Positions 1-63,105 of a stretch of DNA of 64,000 nucleotides are shown piece by piece. Within the stretch, counting starts at the first letter, position 1; each line of letters opens with the position of its first letter. This stretch comes from a virus (lineage: Duplodnaviria > Heunggongvirae > Uroviricota > Caudoviricetes): positions 64,001-128,000 of IMG/VR virus record IMGVR_UViG_3300031999_000001; one strand, given 5' to 3'. The translations under genes and the position numbers were made by a program. The notes under the pieces are model-generated. The model was not told where the DNA came from. It did not search any database and saw only the letters and a list, made by a program, of their open reading frames with translations.

Positions 1-2130
1 GCCAGAATAAACAAATGTTGCCTGAACAACATCTCTTCTATTTCCAGCCGTAATTGCACTTTCTGTAAGTAAGGTGAATGAATTACCGGAAACAATATAA
101 TCAATTCTATTTGTTGGGTCTCCAATACTTTCAAAATAAGTATTACTACCACCACTATATACCTTTGCACCATTCAAAAGAATACCATTATAACGAACTT
201 CCAAATCCCCTTCGGTTTTATTATATGGTGTTGGAAGTGTAAATATTTTTTTTGCTCCAGTATAATTTAATGATATATTAACAAATGAAAATGGAAGTGT
301 ATATCCACTTGAATTTGCTGGAAAGTCAACGTTTTTAATATAATCAAAAACATCATATTCAATACCACGTGCAGTATCAAGAGCAACATCAACTTCTTTT
401 GTGTTTAAAACAAGTTTACTGTCTTCCTGATAATATTGTGGTGTTGTATAATGTATTCTTGTTGCAGTACCTGTTTGAATCCACGATTTTTTATTATCAA
501 CGGTTTGCATTAAATTAAATCCTGCCATACGAAACACATTCATATATTTCTGACCACTATCGGTATTACCACTAACTTGAAAATAAAAATCATTGGTTTC
601 CAATGGTGCTACCGGATAACCTTCTGTATCATATGGTAATGAATTTGATGGGAAATCGTTTTGGGATAATTCAACAGTATTTGGATTTATTTTGCCATTG
701 ACAGTATAAATATATTCAGTAATGTTAATGAAAGGTTCTGGAATTCCAATTAAAAGAAACATTGATTTTATTGCTTGACGAGTTCCCTTTGATTTCCAAA
801 AATAATTAGTATTTAATAATACTCTTCTCCAAAGTTCAATATCAATTTCTGCGGGAAGTAAATCCGTATTTAAATTTTTTTCACTATCATCAATCGTTAA
901 AAAACTTTTAACTAATTCATTTTCATTAACTAATGAAAAATATTCCCAACCAAAAGTTTTTGCAAGATTTTTTATTAATTGATCTGGAATATTATTAATT
1001 TTATCATATGTAACACGATTAATATCAACCAAAGAATCAATAAATTGTTTTAATTGGTCAAATTCTCTACCATACAATCTTAAAAGTTTGGTCATTTTGC
1101 CTTCTTCTGTAAGATCATATGTTTTAAGTGATTGTGGTATTAAAAATCTGGCAATTAAATCTGTTTTTATTGAATCATATTTATTACCAATCGTTAAAAT
1201 AACATCCAAAAAACTACGATATTTTGGTGTATTAATATCAATATTATATTTATCACCTGTTGTCCATAACATTGAAGCATTAGAATATATTATAGTTCCG
1301 TTATCAAGTAATGTTGGGTCTTTTAATATAAATTTAAATCCATTTGTATCATCTCTTTCAGACACAACATATTTTTCATAATCATTTAAAAGTGCCCTAA
1401 ATTCTTCAAAAACAACATTATTTGGTTTAATATGAAAATCAATCATACCGGATGTACCAGTAATGTTTGGAAATGGATTGCCAATAGTTTGTATCGTTAA
1501 ATATTTTTGACTGAAACTATATCCTGTAAAACCAATAATAAAATAAGAATTACCTGTTGGATTAACTGATGACCAAATTATATATTTATTATATGATAAA
1601 TTTAAGTTTCTTAATTCATTATCAGTATATCCCGAATTACCTCTATTCATTACCAAACCAAATGTATTAACTGTATATCCTGTTGGTACTTTAAATGTTG
1701 ATATATTAGTAATTGAATTGTAATTAAAACCAGAATATGTTATATTACCACCTCTGTTTGTTTGAGAATTTACAAAAACACTTCCCGGATAAGTGACAAT
1801 AATGTTTTGTATTGTTATTCTAAGAAATTCATATGCTGAACCAAATTTTACAAATGTATTTAAATTTGATTTATCTAAATTTAAAACAGCATTTACAGAA
1901 TAATCATATAATATTTCTGATTGAATTTGTGTAATACCTAAAGTTTCAAGTGTAATGGGACGAACAAAGGAACTTAATTCATTTGTATAATCAATATATT
2001 TCCTACCTTCAAAATTGGATGTAATAGCAAAACTACCAAACGAAAATATAATTTCGGAAGCCGTATTGTTAAAATTCGTATTATTTAAATTTAAGTCGAG
2101 ATTTGTATTTACAACTTTTACTTTTGCCAC
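1..2130 (-). CDS. Baseplate/tail protein with P2 gpI-like wedge motif; partial, runs off the window start
   Basis: Absent from the ORF track. My translation from GTG at 2130 (MAKVKVVNTNLDLNL...) stays open to base 1. Contains KNLAKTFGW and YFWKSKGTRQAIKSMFLLIG, resembling the LAxxxGW / KGTxxAI motifs of gpI-like wedge proteins. Lies in the baseplate module. Confidence 0.6.
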   Translation of the reverse strand, partial: MAKVKVVNTNLDLNLNNTNFNNTASEIIFSFGSFAITSNFEGRKYIDYTNELSSFVRPITLETLGITQIQSEILYDYSVNAVLNLDKSNLNTFVKFGSAYEFLRITIQNIIVTYPGSVFVNSQTNRGGNITYSGFNYNSITNISTFKVPTGYTVNTFGLVMNRGNSGYTDNELRNLNLSYNKYIIWSSVNPTGNSYFIIGFTGYSFSQKYLTIQTIGNPFPNITGTSGMIDFHIKPNNVVFEEFRALLNDYEKYVVSERDDTNGFKFILKDPTLLDNGTIIYSNASMLWTTGDKYNIDINTPKYRSFLDVILTIGNKYDSIKTDLIARFLIPQSLKTYDLTEEGKMTKLLRLYGREFDQLKQFIDSLVDINRVTYDKINNIPDQLIKNLAKTFGWEYFSLVNENELVKSFLTIDDSEKNLNTDLLPAEIDIELWRRVLLNTNYFWKSKGTRQAIKSMFLLIGIPEPFINITEYIYTVNGKINPNTVELSQNDFPSNSLPYDTEGYPVAPLETNDFYFQVSGNTDSGQKYMNVFRMAGFNLMQTVDNKKSWIQTGTATRIHYTTPQYYQEDSKLVLNTKEVDVALDTARGIEYDVFDYIKNVDFPANSSGYTLPFSFVNISLNYTGAKKIFTLPTPYNKTEGDLEVRYNGILLNGAKVYSGGSNTYFESIGDPTNRIDYIVSGNSFTLLTESAITAGNRRDVVQATFVYSG

Positions 2131-57826: not shown

Positions 57827-58933
57827 CTAAAGTTTAAACCTTTCCATTTTTCTGGCTTTACGTCTCAGTTCGTTTACTTCTCTTAAAGCATTTGGATTAA
57901 ATGCTTCTCTTTTAACAATACTGACCAAATAATTGAATTCGTTCTCACTAATGATTTGACCTACATAATTATTACCAACTTCTTTAAGCACATAACTTTT
58001 AGGTCCTTTGCTTGATTCTGAAGGATTACCTTCCGTATCAATAGTTGCATCAAAAGTAAGTTCAAGAAGTTCCTGAATTTTTTCCTGAACACCTGCAGTC
58101 ATATTCTGTTTTGTTTTCTTTAATGCTTTTTCAAGTAAATCAACAATATTTTCCTGATGAGTTTTCTTCATCTCATTATATGTTTCAGTAAATTCCTGAT
58201 TTGAAGATTTATTTTTCAATTCGGAAATGATAGCCAAAGAACCATAACAGTCACGAATCATCAAATCCCAAACCTGTTCAGCATAAGTGAATGAAGGAAA
58301 TTTATCTATTGCAACAATTTCACCATCAATCAATACGATAATACCAATTAAATTTTTTGGACGTTCAAAATGTGCAATAAACTGTTCAAGTTTCTTATCA
58401 TATTTCTCGAAATAAACATTAAGATAATTACCTGCATTAGATTGAGTATCCTGACCCAATTTATTAATTGCAGGATAAATCCTACTATATGAATTTGATT
58501 GTCCCATTGTGTCAAACACCATTTCACGCATTGAAATAGGAAGCATTCTGAATTCCTGAGTACCAGAAAAATAACCTGTCTGTCCACCCTGAATACAACC
58601 CGCATCACGGTAAGTTACATTAGCATATTTATCCATATAACCAGCTTTAATCATACTATGATTCTGAGCACTTTGTTTTGTCATAACAGCCATTTGAGTA
58701 GGCACAATAACTTCCTTATTTTCCTTATTAATAAAATCAATTTGACCATAAGATTGGTTACCAGCTTGTAATGCAGTTAATGGATTTCCAAAACGTTCAT
58801 CCAATGAGTATTCTTTCTCAGTTGTAAGACATATAAGTTGCATATTTAATATGCTTTGTACAATAATATTACCATCACCATCTTTAACAGGACGGCAACC
58901 TTTTAACATTTCTGTAAATTCTCTTGTGTTCAT
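57827..58933 (-). CDS. ARPP/DUF6569-like protein
   Basis: YGQIDFINKE.KEVIVP...AQNH...GCIQGGQTG resembles the ARPP-1/DUF6569 pattern as I recall it; only 11 nt from the vWA gene. Confidence 0.4.
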   Translation of the reverse strand: MNTREFTEMLKGCRPVKDGDGNIIVQSILNMQLICLTTEKEYSLDERFGNPLTALQAGNQSYGQIDFINKENKEVIVPTQMAVMTKQSAQNHSMIKAGYMDKYANVTYRDAGCIQGGQTGYFSGTQEFRMLPISMREMVFDTMGQSNSYSRIYPAINKLGQDTQSNAGNYLNVYFEKYDKKLEQFIAHFERPKNLIGIIVLIDGEIVAIDKFPSFTYAEQVWDLMIRDCYGSLAIISELKNKSSNQEFTETYNEMKKTHQENIVDLLEKALKKTKQNMTAGVQEKIQELLELTFDATIDTEGNPSESSKGPKSYVLKEVGNNYVGQIISENEFNYLVSIVKREAFNPNALREVNELRRKARKMERFKL

Positions 58934-58944
58934 AATATAAAATT

Positions 58945-60579
58945 TTAAACGTTAATACTAATTTTTTTTGTTCTCTTAACATTGGCTGCTTCAAGAGCCA
59001 ATACCTGATTTTCAAGCCACCTTTTTGTGTCAATTTCAAGCAATCTTGCGTTAATCTGAGGCATCAATGCAACTGGATTATTAATTGCCATTGTTACAAC
59101 GTTATTACCCAATTTTCTTACATTAGCACCCATTTCAGCACTGATAATTGGTGAAATCTGGAACATTGGAATATTTCTACCTGATTCTGCCTGATAAATT
59201 GAAATAACTTCGTTAGTCAATCCATCATAAGCATTTTCATATCCATCAGTTAAAATAAAAATTGCATCATATTGTCTTGCAGAATTTTCACTTTTTAAGA
59301 GTTCAATAAATGAACTTGCTAAATCAGTAACTTCATCTTTTGTTTTCACCAATGTAGCATTTTCAGCAGAAACCATAAGAACTTTTGCTGTAAAATCTGC
59401 AATTGCTCTTGGTGTATTCTTTGATTCCTGTTTATGACCAGTCATTGAAATACTATCATCAAGAATAATACCAATACTATTATAAAAAAATCCTTGAATC
59501 CTTTTCTTTTCAGCAAGTTTATTAATAGCAACCAATAATTCATTTGTCCAACCATTTTCATAACCAGTTTTGTAAAGTGCAAGAAAATCGGTTGCTTTTT
59601 CAAGTTCAATAATTTTTTCAACACCCAACTTTGCTGTTGATTTTGTCTGACGAACCTGCTGATTCACAGAAGTAACAGTAACATTCTTTCTGATCAAAGC
59701 CTTTGTTCCTTCTTTCTGGATATCAGTTGCCCACATTGAATGAAATTGTGGATGTTTTACTGATGATATTAAACCAAGCAATACTTCTTCTGGAACAATT
59801 TTAATACCAGTTATATCAACTTTTGCCTTCTGATATTCACTCAAAAGTGGAAATTCAATCACATTATAATTAACACCAGCATCTTTCTTAAAAATGAAAA
59901 GTAATAATTTGAATGCTCTCATTGAATCACCGTTAAAGTATTTCAAAATACATTCATTTACAATATTAGTTTCCTTTTCAGTACCAACCAAATTAGCACC
60001 CTCAAGATTTACTTGCTTTTGTGCAATCGAAAGCAATATTGATGTTTTTTTCTGACCATATACATGCTTAAATATTTTGGCAATTTTATTACGATATTTC
60101 ATTGCATAAAATTCAAGATTTGACTGACCCCAGATAAAGCCAAGCATAATTTTCCTTGACCTTTCGTTATTTACTTTTGCATCTTTCAAATCAACAAAAA
60201 GACGAAGAACATATGGTAAACCGTTTTCACCAAGATTATTTAATGCAGTAAGAACTGCTTTATCGCTCAATCCATTATCATACCAGTCAATTGGATTAAC
60301 AATATTGCATGCCCCACCCTTCAAGGTATTCTTAAATTCATTTAAAAGAACCTCTGATACAAATTTACCAGTAACACCCTTTTGACTTGCTATAATCAAT
60401 GGGAGTTCCTTTGAAAGTTTATACAGATTCTTAATTTGAAGCTGAATTGCCTTCATTTGTTCATCTTTCTTGTGGTAATAGGTAGCAGAGCTACGACTAC
60501 CAGATGCTGTTTCAAGTCCATCAATTAATGATTGCTTTACAGTACTGAGCATCCTTTGTGTTAATACCAAATTTTCCAT
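58945..60579 (-). CDS. Helical domain plus C-terminal vWA domain, possibly a divergent TROVE/Ro60-like protein
   Basis: MIDAS GIILDDSISM and FILTDGYEN; ~370-aa helical N-terminal region. The vWA call is strong, the TROVE call tentative. Confidence 0.55.
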   Translation of the reverse strand: MENLVLTQRMLSTVKQSLIDGLETASGSRSSATYYHKKDEQMKAIQLQIKNLYKLSKELPLIIASQKGVTGKFVSEVLLNEFKNTLKGGACNIVNPIDWYDNGLSDKAVLTALNNLGENGLPYVLRLFVDLKDAKVNNERSRKIMLGFIWGQSNLEFYAMKYRNKIAKIFKHVYGQKKTSILLSIAQKQVNLEGANLVGTEKETNIVNECILKYFNGDSMRAFKLLLFIFKKDAGVNYNVIEFPLLSEYQKAKVDITGIKIVPEEVLLGLISSVKHPQFHSMWATDIQKEGTKALIRKNVTVTSVNQQVRQTKSTAKLGVEKIIELEKATDFLALYKTGYENGWTNELLVAINKLAEKKRIQGFFYNSIGIILDDSISMTGHKQESKNTPRAIADFTAKVLMVSAENATLVKTKDEVTDLASSFIELLKSENSARQYDAIFILTDGYENAYDGLTNEVISIYQAESGRNIPMFQISPIISAEMGANVRKLGNNVVTMAINNPVALMPQINARLLEIDTKRWLENQVLALEAANVKRTKKISINV

Positions 60580-60649: not shown

Positions 60650-61456
60650 TCATATAAGTGATTTTTGCAGATTTTTTACTTTTTCAATAAAATCACGTAA
60701 ATGTGTCATCGATAATTTATTTTGTTCTTCTGTCCGATTACTACCTTTATTATAAAGTAATGTTTCAACAACTGAAGTAACACCTTCCAATATCATCATT
60801 TCTTTGTTTCGCAATTCACTTATTTCTTTTTTCAGCTCAATAATATCAGCAGTTTTTTCAACACAAAACATTTGATTTAACCATTTAAAACCCTTTTCAG
60901 TTACCCCTGTTGGTTTACAAACAAAATAACCATTTTCAATATATTTTGAAAGAGGTTTATTTTTTCTGTTAAATATTTTGTTGCGAACCAATATTTTATA
61001 AAGACCATTTCTACCAATTCTACCACAATAATCATTTAGATTAAGTTTTTTTGCAACTTCTGACATACTAAATGTAATTGCAGATTTTAATTCTCTTAAT
61101 GCTTTATATTGTTTTTCAACCTCAATAAAATACAAACGTATTTGTCTGCCTTTTTCATTATTTTGAACCATCGCAATTTCTTTAGCACAATTCAAAGTTA
61201 ATGCATATTCAATTCTAAAAACCCTTTGAAAGTCGCTACCAGTCAACTTCCCATTTTTGGGAAGAGGTATTTTATTACCCTCAAAATCATAATAAAGTCG
61301 AGCATAATCCACATTTTCAACAAACTCATATTTTTCAATTTTATCAATTAACCACGTTGAAAATTTTTTGCCAATCTCAAGAAATGCATGTAAGTCTCTT
61401 GCATTAACAACAGGATTTCCTTTACCGCTTTCTTGAATTTTAATTAGTTCATTCAT
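60650..61456 (-). CDS. AntA/AntB antirepressor-family protein with KilAC-like C-terminus
   Basis: VNARDLHAFL...FSTW...FVENVDY...AKEIAMVQNNEKGRQIRLYFI; EVAKKL...GRNGLYKIL. Confidence 0.8.
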   Translation of the reverse strand: MNELIKIQESGKGNPVVNARDLHAFLEIGKKFSTWLIDKIEKYEFVENVDYARLYYDFEGNKIPLPKNGKLTGSDFQRVFRIEYALTLNCAKEIAMVQNNEKGRQIRLYFIEVEKQYKALRELKSAITFSMSEVAKKLNLNDYCGRIGRNGLYKILVRNKIFNRKNKPLSKYIENGYFVCKPTGVTEKGFKWLNQMFCVEKTADIIELKKEISELRNKEMMILEGVTSVVETLLYNKGSNRTEEQNKLSMTHLRDFIEKVKNLQKSLI

Positions 61457-62106
61457 AATATTTGATTATTAAAATTATTTTTCACATTTTCAATGTCATT
61501 TTCACTCAAATTAAACCATTCGCCACCCATTCTTTTATGCTCGAATTTATGATGTAATTTTAATTCAACATCCTCATCAATTACAGTAATTAACTCCACA
61601 GTTGGATTTGCTGATTTAATTTCTTTTAATCTTCTATTTACGTTAATGCTTTTTCCAATTTTTATATATTCAGTAATTGCATCACGCAAAAAATATGTTT
61701 TAATCATACGAAGTTTTTTAAAACATGGTGTTAAAAATAAACGATTTAAACAATCACTAAAATAATCATTTCGATATATTTTTTCCACATCAATAAAGTA
61801 CTGGCGTACTTGCCTTCCTCTTTCATTATTCTGTACCATTGCAATTTCTTTTGCCATATTTAAAGTTATTCCATATTCAATTTTGAATGGTTTTTCATTA
61901 AAATAGTCATTTATTTTCTCATTATACAAGTTGAAGAATATGCGAATATAATCCATGTTTTCAATAAAATAATATTTTTTTATTTTATATTTAATCCATG
62001 TTGAAAAATCTTTACCAACTTCAAGAAATTCATGTAAATCTCTTGCATTTACAACTAAATTATTAATAATATTATTATGTTCAATTTTAATTAATTCTTC
62101 TTTCAT
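61453..62106 (-). CDS. AntA/AntB-family protein with T5orf172 (GIY-YIG-like) C-terminus
   Basis: VNARDLHEFL...; TYFL...YIKIGKS..VNRRL...E.KLH.KF...R.GGEWF. Confidence 0.8.
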   Translation of the reverse strand: MKEELIKIEHNNIINNLVVNARDLHEFLEVGKDFSTWIKYKIKKYYFIENMDYIRIFFNLYNEKINDYFNEKPFKIEYGITLNMAKEIAMVQNNERGRQVRQYFIDVEKIYRNDYFSDCLNRLFLTPCFKKLRMIKTYFLRDAITEYIKIGKSINVNRRLKEIKSANPTVELITVIDEDVELKLHHKFEHKRMGGEWFNLSENDIENVKNNFNNQIL

Positions 62107-62110
62107 GGGT

Positions 62111-62118
62111 CAAATATA
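62111..62118 (-). promoter_or_regulatory. Bacteroidota-type -7 element just before the ATG at 62106
   Basis: TATATTTG; no clear -33 element. Confidence 0.4.
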
Positions 62119-62157
62119 TGAAAATATTTTAATAAACAACAATTAACACAAAAAAAA

Positions 62158-62199
62158 TGGGTGGGTTTAATATATTTCTACATCAAATTCCCACCCATT
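62158..62199 (-). terminator. Terminator at the end of the ncRNA array
   Basis: ATGGGTGGG/CCCACCCAT stem followed by a long T-run on the minus strand; a second hairpin TCTTCTC-AATAA-GAGAAGA lies near 62219..62237. Confidence 0.65.
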
Positions 62200-62255
62200 C
62201 CGTTTTGGAATAACCTCTCTTCTCAATAAGAGAAGAAGTTTAGTTGTCTTTTTTT

Positions 62256-62380
62256 GCAAGTTTGTGCCACCACTCACGTGGGTGGCAAATTTCAATTTAC
62301 TGAAAACACAACAAGTTCTTCCATTTATATAAGGGAATATTTTAAAAGTATTTTTTGTTTTTCAAGTTTAACCAACTTGC
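62256..62380 (-). ncRNA. Structured element D of the array
   Basis: Closing stem GCAAGTT/AACTTGC; AAAAACAAAAA; TTCC/GGAA hairpin; GAACTTGTTGTGTTTTCAGTAA motif; TGCCACC/GGTGGCA hairpin. Confidence 0.5.
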
Positions 62381-62413
62381 GCTATAACCAACTTAGCTAT
62401 TTTTCCATTTGGG

Positions 62414-62467
62414 CGGAAAAAGATGGATTTGAACCATCGATTTACTGTAAACACTTTTCGTTTTCCC
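62414..62467 (-). ncRNA. 54-nt tRNA minihelix-like element C
   Basis: GGGAAAA/TTTTTCC acceptor stem, GATGG-TTCAAAT-CCATC T-arm, linker containing GTGTTTACAGTAA; no D or anticodon arm. Confidence 0.55.
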
Positions 62468-62473
62468 TGTTTG

Positions 62474-62610
62474 TGGGGAGAATAGGATTTGAACCTATAA
62501 TCAATTGTTTCAACAACAATTTGCTTTACCTATTACTGAAAACACAATCAGTTCTCTTTCTGTAAAGAGTATTGAGATAGTATTTTTTGTTTTTGATTTG
62601 CTATCTCCCC
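62474..62610 (-). ncRNA. 137-nt tRNA mimic B with expanded D-arm
   Basis: GGGGAGA/TCTCCCC+A acceptor; ATAGG-TTCAAAT-CCTAT T-arm; ATTGT-TGTTGAA-ACAAT anticodon-like arm without U33; large D-arm insert. Confidence 0.7.
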
Positions 62611-62642
62611 ATATTTTATTTTAAAGAACGTTTAAAAAAATT

Positions 62643-62718
62643 AGAAGAAATTTGTTAGTGTTTGTTTTGTAATTTCTGATTTACGGTCAAATTTACTGAA
62701 AACACTATCAGTTCTTCT
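62643..62718 (-). ncRNA. Structured element E of the array
   Basis: AGAAGAA/TTCTTCT closing stem; ACTGA-TAGTGTTT-TCAGT hairpin; begins 5 nt after the tRNA discriminator. Confidence 0.45.
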
Positions 62719-62723
62719 TTTCG

Positions 62724-62796
62724 TAGCGGGAGAGGGATTCGAACCCCCGACCTTGACGTTATGAGCGTCACGAGATACCACTTCTACCATCCCGCA
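62724..62796 (-). tRNA. tRNA with CAU anticodon, initiator-like body, no encoded CCA
   Basis: TGCGGGA/TCCCGCT+A, TGACG-CTCATAA-CGTCA, AGGTC, GGGGG-TTCGAAT-CCCTC; imperfect D-stem. Confidence 0.85.
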
Positions 62797-62804
62797 ATTT
62801 TTTG

Positions 62805-62938
62805 TGGGCGAGACAGGAATCGAACCTGTAATCAATTGTTTCATTAACAACTTGCTGTACCTTTTACTGAAAACACAATCAGTTCTCCAGTAGGAGTAAT
62901 ACGATTATATTTTTGTTTTTATATTCGCATACTCGCCC
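62805..62938 (-). ncRNA. 134-nt tRNA mimic A with expanded D-arm
   Basis: GGGCGAG/CTCGCCC+A acceptor; ACAGG-TTCGATT-CCTGT T-arm; GTTGT-TAATGAA-ACAAT arm; D-arm insert with three hairpins. Confidence 0.7.
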
Positions 62939-62981
62939 ATAAATTTTCAATACCACAAAGAACATTTGTCCGAAGACGATG

Positions 62982-63013
62982 CAAATATACAAAACATTTT
63001 TTGATTATGCAAA
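62982..63013 (-). promoter_or_regulatory. Bacteroidota sigma70-type promoter driving the ncRNA array
   Basis: TTTG (63013..63010) - 20 nt - TATATTTG (62989..62982). Confidence 0.75.
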
Positions 63014-63105
63014 TGTTTTTTAAAAAAAATAAAAAAATCTTAAACAATCGTCTGGGAATATAAATACATTATATTTAAGAAAAATTACAAATTATTATAA
63101 AAATA

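What the first reader, a model, noticed from the sequence alone, without database searches (positions are those of the whole stretch)
62474..62938. Two tRNA mimics with a multi-hairpin D-arm insert and compensatory changes
Seen: A (62938..62805) and B (62610..62474) differ in sequence but keep pairing. Acceptor: GGGCGAG/CTCGCCC vs GGGGAGA/TCTCCCC. T-stem: ACAGG/CCTGT vs ATAGG/CCTAT. Insert hairpin: CTCC-TACT-GGAG vs CTCTTT-ACAG-AAAGAG. The hairpin ACTGA-TTGTGTTT-TCAGT is invariant, followed by a D-loop-like AAnAGGTAnAGC. Anticodon-like loops (TAATGAA, TGTTGAA) lack U33. Known: YrlA-type Y RNAs place their ends at the anticodon-stem position, and tmRNA carries its large insert in place of the anticodon arm, so neither matches this D-arm expansion. 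Inference: selection keeps tRNA shape without decoding, consistent with a decoy for tRNA-targeting defence nucleases or a tRNA-shaped carrier of the motif.
Basis: partly seen in the sequence, partly recalled or inferred. Interest (0 to 1): 0.85.

Follow-up and report, generated by a model that had tools for sequence, protein, structure and literature searches.

The report
Phage Ro60 partner RNAs shaped like tRNAs
The two odd "tRNA mimics" are real, conserved small RNAs. They belong to an operon of five or six RNAs that all carry one protein-binding "handle", grafted onto tRNA-shaped bodies in different ways, and they lie next to a very diverged Ro60-type RNA-binding protein, so they are most likely a new branch of the known Ro60/Y-RNA particles rather than working tRNAs.

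Summary
A (62938..62805) and B (62610..62474) are conserved tRNA-shaped RNAs with a roughly 75-nt insert in the D region, and their acceptor, anticodon and T stems co-vary in 17 homologues.

GTGTTT pairs with AAATAC to form a bulged stem, the "handle": helix b, an AAC bulge, helix a, then an unpaired UWCAGUAA.

The handle occurs five times in the window, and nowhere else in the 200-kb phage record:
- closed, inside A and B;
- as a standalone hairpin RNA right after the only canonical tRNA (Met);
- as the open terminal stem of a circularly permuted cloverleaf (62467..62333), whose closed acceptor loop usually encodes CCA;
- once more downstream of that unit.

In distant phages both helices change sequence but stay complementary, and the handle sits at D-loop, variable-arm or acceptor positions.

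In every locus that reaches far enough downstream, the array lies just upstream of a 544-aa protein. No sequence library names it, but it folds as Ro60 (TROVE ring plus vWA; Z 18.6). An ARPP-1 gene follows.

Best reading, about 0.68: Y-RNA-like partners of a phage Ro60.
- Binding and function are inferred.
- No RNA data were available.
- A splicing route to working tRNAs is not excluded.

Earlier follow-ups in this scan reported this same kind of system on other phage genomes. I class it as a new variant of a known kind.

The parts
62982..63013 (-). Promoter-like site upstream of the array: TTTG, 20 nt, TATATTTG
   Evidence: Read. It matches the Bacteroidota-type -33/-7 consensus as I recall it from memory. 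No promoter scan was run.
62805..62938 (-). RNA A: tRNA-shaped body with an open 7-bp acceptor, anticodon-like arm and canonical T arm, and a closed handle in place of most of the D arm
   Evidence: Helix a is ATTGTGTTT/AAATATAAT (7 WC and 2 GU pairs) and helix b is GGAG/CTCC. Rfam tRNA gives 16 bits and ARAGORN makes no call.
62723..62796 (-). tRNA-Met (CAT), the only canonical tRNA in the 200-kb record, with a U1-U72 mismatch
   Evidence: ARAGORN; Rfam 49 bits, with the first and last pair flagged as non-standard.
62643..62718 (-). RNA M: a standalone handle with an open terminal stem, carrying only a small apical hairpin, directly after tRNA-Met
   Evidence: Helix a is TAGTGTTT/AAACACTA (8 WC pairs) and helix b is AGAAG/CTTCT. 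The fold has z -3.7. The same unit follows tRNA-Met in L009, L014, L029, L032 and L033.
62474..62610 (-). RNA B: same design as A, and the commonest type in homologues
   Evidence: The minimum-energy fold of B alone already forms the handle stem.
62333..62467 (-). RNA C-D: a circularly permuted cloverleaf. Order: handle 5' strand, T arm, acceptor 3' strand, discriminator, CCCAAAT loop, acceptor 5' strand, D arm, anticodon arm, A-rich linker, handle 3' strand
   Evidence: Across 17 units, 99.5% of cells are paired, all 7 acceptor pairs show compensatory changes, and 0 of 500 shuffles reach the observed score. The terminal stem is GGGAA/TTCCC plus AAAAGTGTTT/AAATACTTTT.
62297..62322 (-). Second 5'-type handle strand (GGAAG-AAC-TTGTT-GTGTTT-TCAGTAA). 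It can pair with the same 3' strand as C-D, forming the closed handle 'E'
   Evidence: In other loci, 100-250 nt of conserved RNA is inserted in its loop.
62150..62296 (-). Conserved 3' part of the operon: hairpin GCCACC..GGTGGC plus ACAAACTT, hairpin CTTCTTCTC..GAGAAGAG, GTTATTCC, then a terminator (GGGTGGG..CCCACCC followed by T8)
   Evidence: Searches show the same order of elements in L002, L009, L013 and others.
58945..60579 (-). 544-aa Ro60-type protein: a helical-repeat ring plus a vWA domain with a DxSxS MIDAS motif
   Evidence: The model has pLDDT 91. The top 12 Foldseek matches are all Ro60/Rsr/TROVE over the full length. VIA-align gives Z 18.6 with 406 residues aligned. D374, S376 and S378 are conserved. 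In the fetched loci of this clade the gene follows the array wherever the locus reaches it.
57827..58933 (-). 368-aa ARPP-1 protein, the conserved third member of the cassette
   Evidence: Pfam PF20208, E 2.6e-12. It lies right after the Ro60-type gene wherever the locus extends that far, and also in the distant loci L168 and L170.

Best explanation
A and B are two members of an operon of five or six small RNAs that act as Y-RNA-like partners of the phage's own Ro60-type protein. Each RNA has two modules.

Module 1 is a conserved handle: helix b, an unpaired AAC, 2-6 variable nucleotides, helix a, and then an unpaired UWCAGUAA. The opposite strand carries an internal loop. A bulged stem of this kind, with invariant unpaired letters, is what Ro60 proteins grip on Y RNAs.

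Module 2 is the cargo:
- In A and B it is a tRNA body with free acceptor ends. The handle is closed by a hairpin and inserted between G10-C11 and G24-C25, 5' of the G18-G19 dinucleotide.
- In C-D it is a complete cloverleaf wired in permuted order. The handle is the open terminal stem at the variable-arm position, and the acceptor is closed by a loop that usually reads N73-CCA.
- In M it is only a hairpin.

Proposed working: the operon is transcribed from one promoter and cut into units by host tRNA-processing enzymes. The Ro60-type ring binds the handle. The tRNA-shaped cargo then brings a tRNA-binding factor (a nuclease, a modification enzyme or an exoribonuclease such as PNPase) to the ring, or keeps it away from real tRNAs.

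Shown here: the sequences, the structures and their covariation, the modularity, the synteny, and the protein fold.
Inferred: the binding, the processing and the function.
For: 1. The handle is real and modular. It occurs five times in the array and nowhere else in the 200-kb record. 13 curated units from five loci have helix a and helix b complementary and in the right order, with 10 different helix-a and 13 different helix-b sequences, while AAC and UWCAG stay constant.
2. The same handle sits at the D loop (A, B, L168 U3), at the variable arm (C-D, L168 U2), at the acceptor position (L169 U1, L172), or alone (M, L168 U1 and U4). This is what a protein-binding tag would show and an intron would not.
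3. The tRNA bodies are under structural selection. A G15/C48-type nucleotide before the T stem is invariant in C-D.
4. In the 31 array-bearing loci of this clade, every locus that reaches far enough downstream has the 544-aa gene on the same strand 0.3-1.5 kb after the array (26 loci). The ARPP-1 gene follows wherever the locus extends that far (14 loci). Homologues at 35-38% identity also have handle-bearing RNAs in the gap upstream.
5. The 544-aa protein folds as Ro60 over its whole length: Z 18.6 to Xenopus Ro60, 14.3 to Thermus phage Ro60 and 12.7 to Deinococcus Rsr.
6. Known Ro60 systems place tRNA-like Y RNAs beside the gene on the same strand. One such RNA, M. smegmatis YrlA, is cut by RNase P and receives CCA (PMC4201824). 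Phage phiLo has two Y-like RNAs upstream of its Ro60 gene, each with a stem-bulge-stem and a CGAA motif (PMC12135203). C-D has AACGAA at the equivalent bulge.
Against: - No RNA-level data exist. Transcript ends, processing and abundance are therefore unknown.
- Binding of the handle to the protein is not shown.
- The curated YrlA model does not recognise any unit (12.5 bits, on an artefactual placement), and the literal GNCGAAN0-1G motif is absent.
- Pfam TROVE does not hit the protein, so the Ro60 assignment rests on fold alone.
- Some distant relatives carry near-canonical tRNA bodies with U33 that score 45-52 bits on Rfam's tRNA model. This would also fit working tRNAs.
- Not every distant Ro60-like gene has a gap upstream. 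L166, L167, L170 and L173 do not.
Confidence: 0.68

Rival explanations
1. These are interrupted and permuted tRNA genes. The handle is a new kind of intron, or a processing signal, that is cut out (by back-splicing in C-D), and the products are ordinary decoding tRNAs that supply a phage with almost no tRNAs of its own.
For: - The bodies have 7-bp acceptors, canonical T loops, G18-G19, 5-bp anticodon stems and 7-nt loops with A37.
- ARAGORN calls a tRNA for a band of virtual excision junctions in all 17 A/B sequences.
- 12 of 17 C-D units encode N73-CCA.
- The record has only one canonical tRNA.
- Distant relatives pass Rfam's tRNA threshold with the handle treated as an insertion.
Against: - The best junction common to all sequences restores only a 3-bp D stem with a 6-8-nt loop. 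ARAGORN accepts about 10% of all excisions, so its calls carry little weight.
- Joining C to D at fixed handle borders would give variable loops of 4-8 nt, differing between close relatives.
- The handle also occurs with no tRNA exons at all (M, L168 U1 and U4), and it occurs in place of the acceptor stem, where excision would destroy the tRNA.
- 5 of 17 C-D loops and 6 of 17 A/B loops lack U33, and the anticodon changes between near-identical scaffolds.
- No Rfam intron or ribozyme family matches at E up to 10.
- No ligase or endonuclease is part of the conserved cassette.
Confidence: 0.14
2. These are free-standing decoys for host tRNA-targeting defences (anticodon nucleases) or for tRNA-modifying enzymes, acting without the Ro60-type protein. 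On this view the shared motif is only a stabilising or processing element.
For: - The anticodon loops copy those of specific tRNAs: Lys CUU, Asn, His, Tyr.
- The triplet U33-G34-U35 is avoided in 9 of 9 Asn/His-type C-D loops. This looks like tuning against an enzyme that reads that triplet, though which enzyme is recalled from memory and not tested.
- Loops diversify between close relatives while the stems are kept.
Against: - It does not explain the standalone handles without a tRNA body, or the strict synteny with the Ro60-type/ARPP pair across clades that share only 35% protein identity.
- No defence or anti-defence gene was identified in the cassette.
- It is not exclusive of the main explanation. 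The cargo of a Ro60 particle could itself be the decoy.
Confidence: 0.1
3. These are decaying tRNA pseudogenes with chance repeats, and have no function.
For: Standard tRNA scores are below threshold, and the loops of A and B in this window are non-canonical.
Against: - Compensatory changes occur in every stem across 17-23 homologues.
- The handle is conserved across clades with helices that co-vary.
- Gene order is conserved across the fetched loci.
Confidence: 0.02

Closest known systems
Bacterial and phage Ro60 (Rsr) with YrlA-type Y RNAs (Chen et al. 2014, PMC4201824; Rfam RF02553)
   Same: - Small RNAs encoded beside a Ro60 gene on the same strand.
- A two-module design: a protein-binding stem plus a tRNA-like domain.
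- C-D has the same order as YrlA: stem strand, T arm, closed acceptor stem-loop, D arm, stem strand.
- A 7-bp closed acceptor, as in the M. smegmatis YrlA that RNase P cuts and that then receives CCA.
   Different: - RF02553 does not score any unit, and the GNCGAAN0-1G motif is absent.
- C-D keeps a complete anticodon arm, and its ends emerge at the variable-arm position rather than the anticodon-stem position.
- CCA is already encoded in most units.
- A and B are not permuted at all. They carry the stem as a closed insert in the D region, which has no counterpart in YrlA.
- The protein is not recognised by Pfam TROVE.
Thermus phage phiLo Ro60 with Yrl1/Yrl2 (PMC12135203; PDB 9KOP, 9L5Y)
   Same: - A phage-encoded Ro60 with two or more partner RNAs just upstream of the gene.
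- A stem-bulge-stem handle with CGAA in the bulge. C-D here has AACGAA at that place.
- The protein model aligns to 9L5Y with Z 14.3.
   Different: - As described in that paper, the phiLo RNAs are plain stem-bulge-stem Y RNAs. The paper's text does not mention tRNA-like domains.
- Here the cargo is a tRNA body in several wirings, and an ARPP-1 gene is part of the cassette.
Circularly permuted tRNA genes of the red alga Cyanidioschyzon merolae and some archaea (recalled from memory; the topic appears in PMC3400036 and PMC4238349, listed)
   Same: In C-D the 3' half (T arm, acceptor 3' strand, CCA) lies upstream of the 5' half (acceptor 5' strand, D arm, anticodon arm), with a short spacer between them.
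   Different: - Those genes are matured through a bulge-helix-bulge cut and a circular intermediate into normal tRNAs.
- Here the flanks form a conserved 15-bp handle that also exists without any tRNA.
- The junction lengths vary, the host is bacterial, and no maturation was shown.
tmRNA, including two-piece permuted tmRNA
   Same: A tRNA-like acceptor/T-arm module combined with a large non-tRNA insert. A permuted gene order exists in some lineages.
   Different: There is no tag reading frame and no pseudoknot ring. ARAGORN finds no tmRNA. Rfam's permuted-tmRNA model gives 14.5 bits against a 47-bit cut-off.
Dictyostelium Class I RNAs (PMC7919456)
   Same: A short stem joins the 5' and 3' ends, followed on the 5' side by a conserved unpaired 11-nt motif. 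The handle tail UUACAGUAA matches 4 of the 5 positions that paper calls invariant.
   Different: This is a eukaryotic RNA family with no known Ro60 link. The resemblance is an 8-letter match, and position 9 differs. It is a lead taken from earlier scan notes, not an established relation.

Membership tests
Canonical decoding tRNA | Detected by ARAGORN, or by Rfam RF00005 at its 29-bit gathering score | tested here: not met
   ARAGORN makes no call for A, B or C-D. Rfam gives 16.1 bits for A, 19.4 for B and 22.3 for the 5' half of C-D.
Canonical decoding tRNA | 7-bp acceptor stem and a 5-bp T stem with a T-loop of the TTCRANT type | tested here: met
   The stems are paired 7/7 and co-vary.
Canonical decoding tRNA | D stem of 3-4 bp enclosing a 7-11-nt D loop | tested here: not met
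   Only G10-C25 and C11-G24 can pair (91% of cells), and they enclose about 85 nt. The distant L168 U3 has a full 4-bp D stem around the handle.
Canonical decoding tRNA | 7-nt anticodon loop with U33 and a purine at position 37 | tested here: not met
   A has A33 and B has G33. 11 of 17 A/B homologues and 12 of 17 C-D units do have U33, and A37 is nearly universal.
Canonical decoding tRNA | CCA end, aminoacylation and use on the ribosome | not testable with these tools
   This needs RNA and biochemical data.
YrlA-type Y RNA (Rfam RF02553) | Encoded within about 4 kb of a Ro60 gene, on the same strand (the criterion of Chen et al. 2014) | tested here: met
   The array spans 62938..62297 and the gene 60579..58945, both on the minus strand. 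In other loci they are 0.3-1.5 kb apart. The criterion was read.
YrlA-type Y RNA (Rfam RF02553) | Domain order T arm, closed acceptor-like stem-loop, D arm, with the RNA's ends forming a stem | tested here: not met
   A and B, the subject of this finding, have the normal tRNA order and open acceptor ends. The neighbouring C-D unit does meet this feature.
YrlA-type Y RNA (Rfam RF02553) | GNCGAAN0-1G motif near the 5' end | tested here: not met
   C-D reads AACGAAAAG or AACTAAAAG. A and B read GAGAACTG. Only the CGAA core is shared, and only by most C-D units.
YrlA-type Y RNA (Rfam RF02553) | Score at or above 69 bits on the curated covariance model | tested here: not met
   The best score in the whole record is 12.5 bits. 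It spans A's T arm and the D arm of tRNA-Met, which is the tandem-tRNA artefact.
Ro60 / TROVE proteins (the 544-aa neighbour) | A ring of helical repeats followed by a vWA domain, aligned over the full length to solved Ro60 structures | tested here: met
   The top 12 Foldseek matches are all Ro60/Rsr/TROVE. Z is 18.6 with 406 residues aligned over 16..513 and rmsd 4.1. vWA-only matches reach at most Z 11.4.
Ro60 / TROVE proteins (the 544-aa neighbour) | Sequence match to Pfam TROVE (PF05731) or to solved Ro60 sequences | tested here: not met
   Pfam gives no hit at E 0.01 for the protein, or at E 0.001 for 36 aligned relatives. There is no hit to PDB sequences with the single sequence or with the profile. 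Protein-atlas features lean towards TROVE clusters, but that is only a lead.
Ro60 / TROVE proteins (the 544-aa neighbour) | MIDAS motif DxSxS in the vWA domain | tested here: met
   D374 and S376 are invariant, and S378 is at least 90% conserved, in 36 relatives at 22-44% identity.
Ro60 / TROVE proteins (the 544-aa neighbour) | Binds Y RNA stems and misfolded RNA ends | not testable with these tools
   This needs pull-down or gel-shift experiments.
Self-splicing or enzyme-spliced tRNA intron | Excision at one conserved junction restores a canonical tRNA | tested here: inconclusive
   ARAGORN accepts many junctions in all 17 sequences. The best common one gives a 3-bp D stem and a short loop.
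Self-splicing or enzyme-spliced tRNA intron | Match to a known intron or self-cleaving ribozyme family | tested here: not met
   No Rfam intron or ribozyme family matches at E up to 10 in 62000..63100. The 60-90-nt insert is too small for a group I core, which is an inference.
Circularly permuted tRNA gene (algal/archaeal type) | The 3' half lies upstream of the 5' half, with complementary acceptor strands | tested here: met
   This applies to C-D only. 21 of 23 units pair 7/7, with about 13 different stem sequences. It does not apply to A or B.
Circularly permuted tRNA gene (algal/archaeal type) | Maturation through a circular intermediate into a normal tRNA | not testable with these tools
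   No RNA reads were available.

The most novel reading that the evidence does not exclude
One protein handle is grafted in nature onto any of four positions of the tRNA cloverleaf: the D loop, the variable arm, the acceptor end, or a permuted order with a closed CCA-bearing acceptor. This makes a family of Ro60-tethered tRNA look-alikes. Their anticodon loops imitate particular host tRNAs (Lys, Asn, His, Tyr) while removing the U33-G34-U35 element. On this reading the particle is a programmable trap, or delivery device, for enzymes that read anticodon loops, such as defence nucleases or the queuosine-inserting enzyme. Some members, those with free or RNase-P-exposed CCA ends, may even be charged.
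Probability: 0.22. Interest if true: 0.85.

Novelty: new variant of a known kind. Interest (0 to 1): 0.6.

Why it matters
Ro60/Y-RNA particles are conserved from bacteria to humans, yet the role of the tRNA-like part of bacterial Y RNAs is still unknown. This phage clade offers a natural experiment. The same handle is attached to tRNA bodies wired in several ways, next to a Ro60 so diverged that sequence libraries miss it, and with a conserved enzyme-like ARPP partner.

It matters in three ways:
1. It enlarges the Ro60 world, both protein and RNA, beyond what Pfam and Rfam can currently find. Homologues are common in large phages up to about 355 kb, and the runs that hold this stretch are sediment metagenomes.
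2. It defines a compact handle with clear invariant letters and co-varying helices that can be tested directly in binding assays.
3. It shows that unusual "tRNA genes with inserts" and "permuted tRNA genes" in phage genomes may be Y-like RNAs, which bears on how phage tRNA repertoires are annotated.

If the anticodon-loop pattern reflects targeting of anticodon-reading enzymes, it would give the first concrete function for the tRNA mimicry of Y RNAs.

Tried and rejected
- **Known RNA families.** Rfam at gathering score on the whole window, and at E up to 10 on 62000..63100, gave only tRNA-Met above threshold and no ribozyme, intron, Y RNA or tmRNA. By eye I looked for hammerhead, HDV-like, pistol and hatchet cores and bulge-helix-bulge motifs around the insert borders and found none. 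This is not a formal test.
- **Early working idea.** I first thought the handle was an intron and C-D a permuted tRNA gene matured by back-splicing, at 70% odds. I downgraded this after finding handles without tRNA bodies, variable junction lengths, and the Ro60 fold of the neighbour.
- **Protein sequence searches.** Pfam, PHROGs and PDB sequence searches, single and profile, gave nothing for the 544-aa protein. Only the fold comparison identified it.
- **Phage record search.** A blastn search of 50,697 phage records with the array found only tRNA-Met matches.
- **RNA evidence.** No RNA holder was listed. 17 DNA runs from sediment and freshwater metagenomes hold all or part of the stretch.
- **Short DNA pattern.** A 14-mer pattern scan of viral contigs returned mostly chance matches, which I filtered by context.
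- **Automatic handle search.** A rigid automatic search for handle partner strands found 8 solutions against about 0.5 expected from shuffles, but it mis-registered several helices. I replaced it with a scripted check of curated pairings.
- **Virtual excision with ARAGORN.** This is too lenient to decide for or against splicing.
- **Distant loci without arrays.** Four distant Ro60-like loci (L166, L167, L170, L173) have no gene-free gap upstream and showed no handle. These are short contigs, so the RNAs may lie elsewhere.
- **Complex prediction.** I did not run complex prediction, because it does not take RNA and I make no claim that the two proteins bind each other.
Full report
**1. What is in the sequence**

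On the minus strand, the stretch 63013..62150 is a gene-free RNA region in an AT-rich (27-35% GC) phage genome whose long ORFs nearly all lie on that strand. The window is bases 64001-128000 of a 200,057-base virus record.

ARAGORN and Rfam recognise only one tRNA, Met-CAT at 62796..62723. A and B score 16 and 19 bits on the tRNA model, below its 29-bit threshold.

The looser core GTGTTTWCAGTAA occurs five times, all within 62876..62297 and nowhere else in the 200-kb record. That record also has no other canonical tRNA.

**2. Relatives**

Exact-pattern scans of viral contigs, filtered for tRNA-like context, gave 31 loci with the same array. Two gene forms recur.

*The A/B type.* I aligned 17 distinct sequences (A3).
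- The RNAs have an open 7-bp acceptor, an anticodon-like arm and a T arm, all with compensatory changes.
- 97% of cells are paired, 12 pairs have changes on both sides, and 0 of 500 shuffles reach the observed covariation score. Slid controls pair at 45-58%.

- The T arm and the acceptor 3' strand lie upstream of the acceptor 5' strand, the D arm and a complete anticodon arm.
- The two acceptor strands pair 7/7 in 21 of 23 units, with about 13 different sequences. All seven pairs show compensatory changes.
- The loop that closes the acceptor begins N73-CCA in 12 of 17 units. The window's own unit reads G-CCCAAAT.

**3. The handle**

RNAalifold and pair counting show that the conserved motif is one strand of a bulged stem, not a hairpin of its own.

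- In C-D the termini pair as GGGAA/TTCCC (helix b) and AAAAGTGTTT/AAATACTTTT (helix a). An internal loop containing AAC lies between them, and an unpaired ACAGUAA leads into the T arm.
Helix a (AAATACTAT/RTAGTGTTT) is 97% paired, with changes between G-U and G-C and one compensatory swap in the A type.
It is nevertheless the minimum-energy fold of A taken alone.
- A third context, M (62718..62643), is a handle with only a small apical hairpin, placed directly after tRNA-Met. It recurs in at least five other loci.
- A further 5'-type strand at 62322..62297 can pair with the same 3' strand as C-D.

**4. Covariation of the handle across clades**

In the close clade the handle hardly varies. I therefore fetched loci of Ro60-like homologues at 30-41% identity. 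Four of them have gene-free gaps upstream, and all four hold handle-bearing RNAs.

A scripted check of 13 curated units confirmed that both helices are complementary and correctly ordered in every unit.
- Helix a reads GTGTTT/AAATAC, TAGTGTTT/AAACACTA, GAGAT/ATCTC, GTCTT/AAGGC, GCGTT/GACGC, GCTGG/CCAGC, AATGTGA/TCACATT, GAAGAC/GTCTTC, AGAGG/CTTCT or GTCTA/TAGAC.
- Helix b is equally varied.
- The unpaired (A)AC and UWCAG stay constant.

The handle sits in several places relative to the tRNA body:
- in the D loop of a body with a full 4-bp D stem (L168 U3);
- at the variable-arm position of an unpermuted tRNA-Tyr-like body with a canonical CUGUAAA loop (L168 U2, 51.8 bits on Rfam tRNA);
- in place of the acceptor end (L169 U1, L172);
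- alone (L168 U1 and U4, L174 U1).

Invariant unpaired letters flanking helices that vary freely, together with free transplantation between scaffolds, are the marks of a protein-binding tag.

**5. The neighbour**

In every locus of this clade that extends far enough downstream, a 544-aa gene follows the array on the same strand within 0.3-1.5 kb, and a 368-aa gene follows it immediately. In this window, two AntA-type genes are inserted between the array and that gene.

The 368-aa protein is an ARPP-1 domain protein. This family was predicted, from gene contexts, to be an enzyme acting on ribose moieties (PMC9503650).

The 544-aa protein has no hit in Pfam, PHROGs or PDB sequences. With an alignment of 36 relatives it folds confidently, at pLDDT 91.
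- The twelve best Foldseek matches are all Ro60, Rsr or TROVE structures over the full length.
- VIA-align gives Z 18.6 to Xenopus Ro60 (406 residues aligned, rmsd 4.1), 14.3 to Thermus phage Ro60 and 12.7 to Deinococcus Rsr. vWA-only matches stop at Z 11.4.
- The MIDAS residues D374, S376 and S378 are conserved.

It is a very diverged Ro60-type protein.

**6. Comparison with what is known**

Ro60 proteins bind Y RNAs through a bulged stem formed by the RNA's ends. Bacterial YrlA RNAs add a tRNA-like domain in the order T arm, closed acceptor stem-loop, D arm, and they are encoded within about 4 kb of the Ro60 gene on the same strand. The M. smegmatis YrlA has a 7-bp acceptor, is cut by RNase P and receives CCA (PMC4201824). 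Thermus phage phiLo has two Y-like RNAs upstream of its Ro60 gene, each with a stem-bulge-stem and a CGAA motif, and the particle recruits host PNPase (PMC12135203).

C-D matches this design and even has AACGAA at the bulge. It differs in four ways:
- It keeps a whole anticodon arm.
- Its ends emerge at the variable-arm position.
- It usually encodes the CCA.
- The curated YrlA model does not recognise it (12.5 bits, on an artefactual placement).

A and B have no counterpart in the described Y RNAs. They are tRNA bodies in normal order, with free ends, carrying the handle as a closed insert.

My literature searches found no description of this RNA family or of permuted tRNA genes in phages. 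Earlier follow-ups in this scan reached the same kind of reading on other phage genomes, including one with the same TROVE-like/ARPP pair. I reached the structure of the array before reading them. A note on this window pointing to a TROVE-like neighbour is what made me test the protein, and that test changed my reading from "tRNA genes with an intron" to "Y-like RNAs".

**7. The rival that is not excluded**

The handle could be removed to give working tRNAs.
- Virtual excision followed by ARAGORN does not decide the matter. About 10% of all excision products are called, a band of junctions is accepted in all 17 sequences, and the best common junction restores only a 3-bp D stem.
- Against splicing: there are handles without exons and handles at the acceptor position. 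The implied variable loops would be 4-8 nt in C-D. There are loops without U33, and anticodon changes between near-identical scaffolds. No intron or ribozyme family matches. No ligase or nuclease belongs to the cassette.
- For splicing: the bodies are of high quality, CCA is encoded, some distant relatives have near-canonical bodies, and the phage has few tRNAs of its own.

RNA reads would settle it, and none were available.

**8. Verdict**

The most likely explanation, at about 0.68, is an operon of Y-RNA-like partners for a diverged phage Ro60, in which A and B are a new topology: a closed handle in the D region of a tRNA-shaped body.
- Shown: the sequences, the covariation, the modularity, the synteny and the protein fold.
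- Inferred: handle-protein binding, processing by host tRNA enzymes, and the role of the tRNA-shaped cargo.

This is a new variant of a known kind, of moderate to high interest.

Noticed in passing
window 62333-62467 (minus) and 16 related units (alignment A2): In the C-D units, every anticodon-type loop with G34-U35 (GUU four times, GUG once) has G or A in place of U33. The Asn/His-type loops that keep U33 have A34 (AUU three times, AUG once). As a result the triplet U33-G34-U35 never occurs (0 of 9). Window A (UAAUGAA) and L032a (CGGUAAA) follow the same rule, while the distant L168 U2 has a canonical CUGUAAA loop. From memory, UGU is what the queuosine-inserting enzyme reads, and G/Q34-U35 is where colicin-E5-type nucleases cut. 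This was not tested.
   Followed up: partly
window 62474-62610 and 62805-62938 (minus); alignment A3, columns 5-11 with 37-43: Nucleotides 4-10 of the acceptor 5' strand (GAGATAG) can pair with the handle's 5' strand (CTATCTC). 92% of cells are paired and three pairs show compensatory changes, for example GAGTTAG/CTAACTC in L032. This pairing excludes both the acceptor stem and helix a, so it may be a switch or a folding intermediate.
   Followed up: partly
window 62723-62796 (minus): The only canonical tRNA of the 200-kb record is a tRNA-Met with a U1-U72 mismatch at the top of the acceptor stem. It is embedded in the Y-like array and is followed at once by the standalone handle RNA M. The same arrangement occurs in L009, L014, L029, L032 and L033.
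   Followed up: partly
window 62150-62296 (minus); L002 7850-8140, L009 and L013 equivalents: Downstream of the last handle is a conserved series: a GC-rich hairpin followed by ACAAACTT, then a CTTCTTC..GAAGAAG hairpin, then GTTATTCC, then the terminator. In other loci, 100-250 nt of conserved structured RNA (CTGTCGG.., CGCCTAACATTTGA..) is inserted in the loop of the last handle. A related element (ATTCCCGG..GTGGCAACACAAACTT..CCGGG) precedes C in many loci. No Rfam family matches any of this.
   Followed up: no
window 62611-62640, 62939-62965 and equivalents (minus): The units A and B are preceded here by a leader resembling GTTCTTTAAAATA. It is complementary to the RRAGAAC at the helix-b/AAC junction of the handle. 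In other loci the same leader also precedes the C-D unit. It may be a processing signal or an alternative pairing.
   Followed up: no
window 60650-62106 (minus): Two AntA-type antirepressor-like genes, one with a T5orf172/MUG113 domain, sit between the RNA array and the Ro60-type gene in this phage only. In the other loci the array lies 0.3-1.5 kb upstream of the gene. These look like mobile insertions.
   Followed up: partly
window 57827-58933 (minus); L168 5595-6698, L170 4632-5714: An ARPP-1 gene directly follows the Ro60-type gene across clades that share only 38-41% Ro60 identity. ARPP has been predicted to be an enzyme acting on ribose moieties (PMC9503650). A link to Ro60 is not mentioned in that paper's text.
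   Followed up: partly
handle tail, e.g. window 62448-62441 and 62303-62297 (minus): The unpaired tail UUACAGUAA, which follows the stem that joins the RNA's ends, resembles the conserved 11-nt motif of Dictyostelium Class I RNAs. It matches 4 of the 5 positions that PMC7919456 calls invariant. This could be chance.
   Followed up: partly
L003 8860-9060 (minus): One B-type copy lacks the 5' acceptor strand and the 5' handle strand, and different sequence takes their place. It may be truncated, or its 5' part may lie elsewhere.
   Followed up: no
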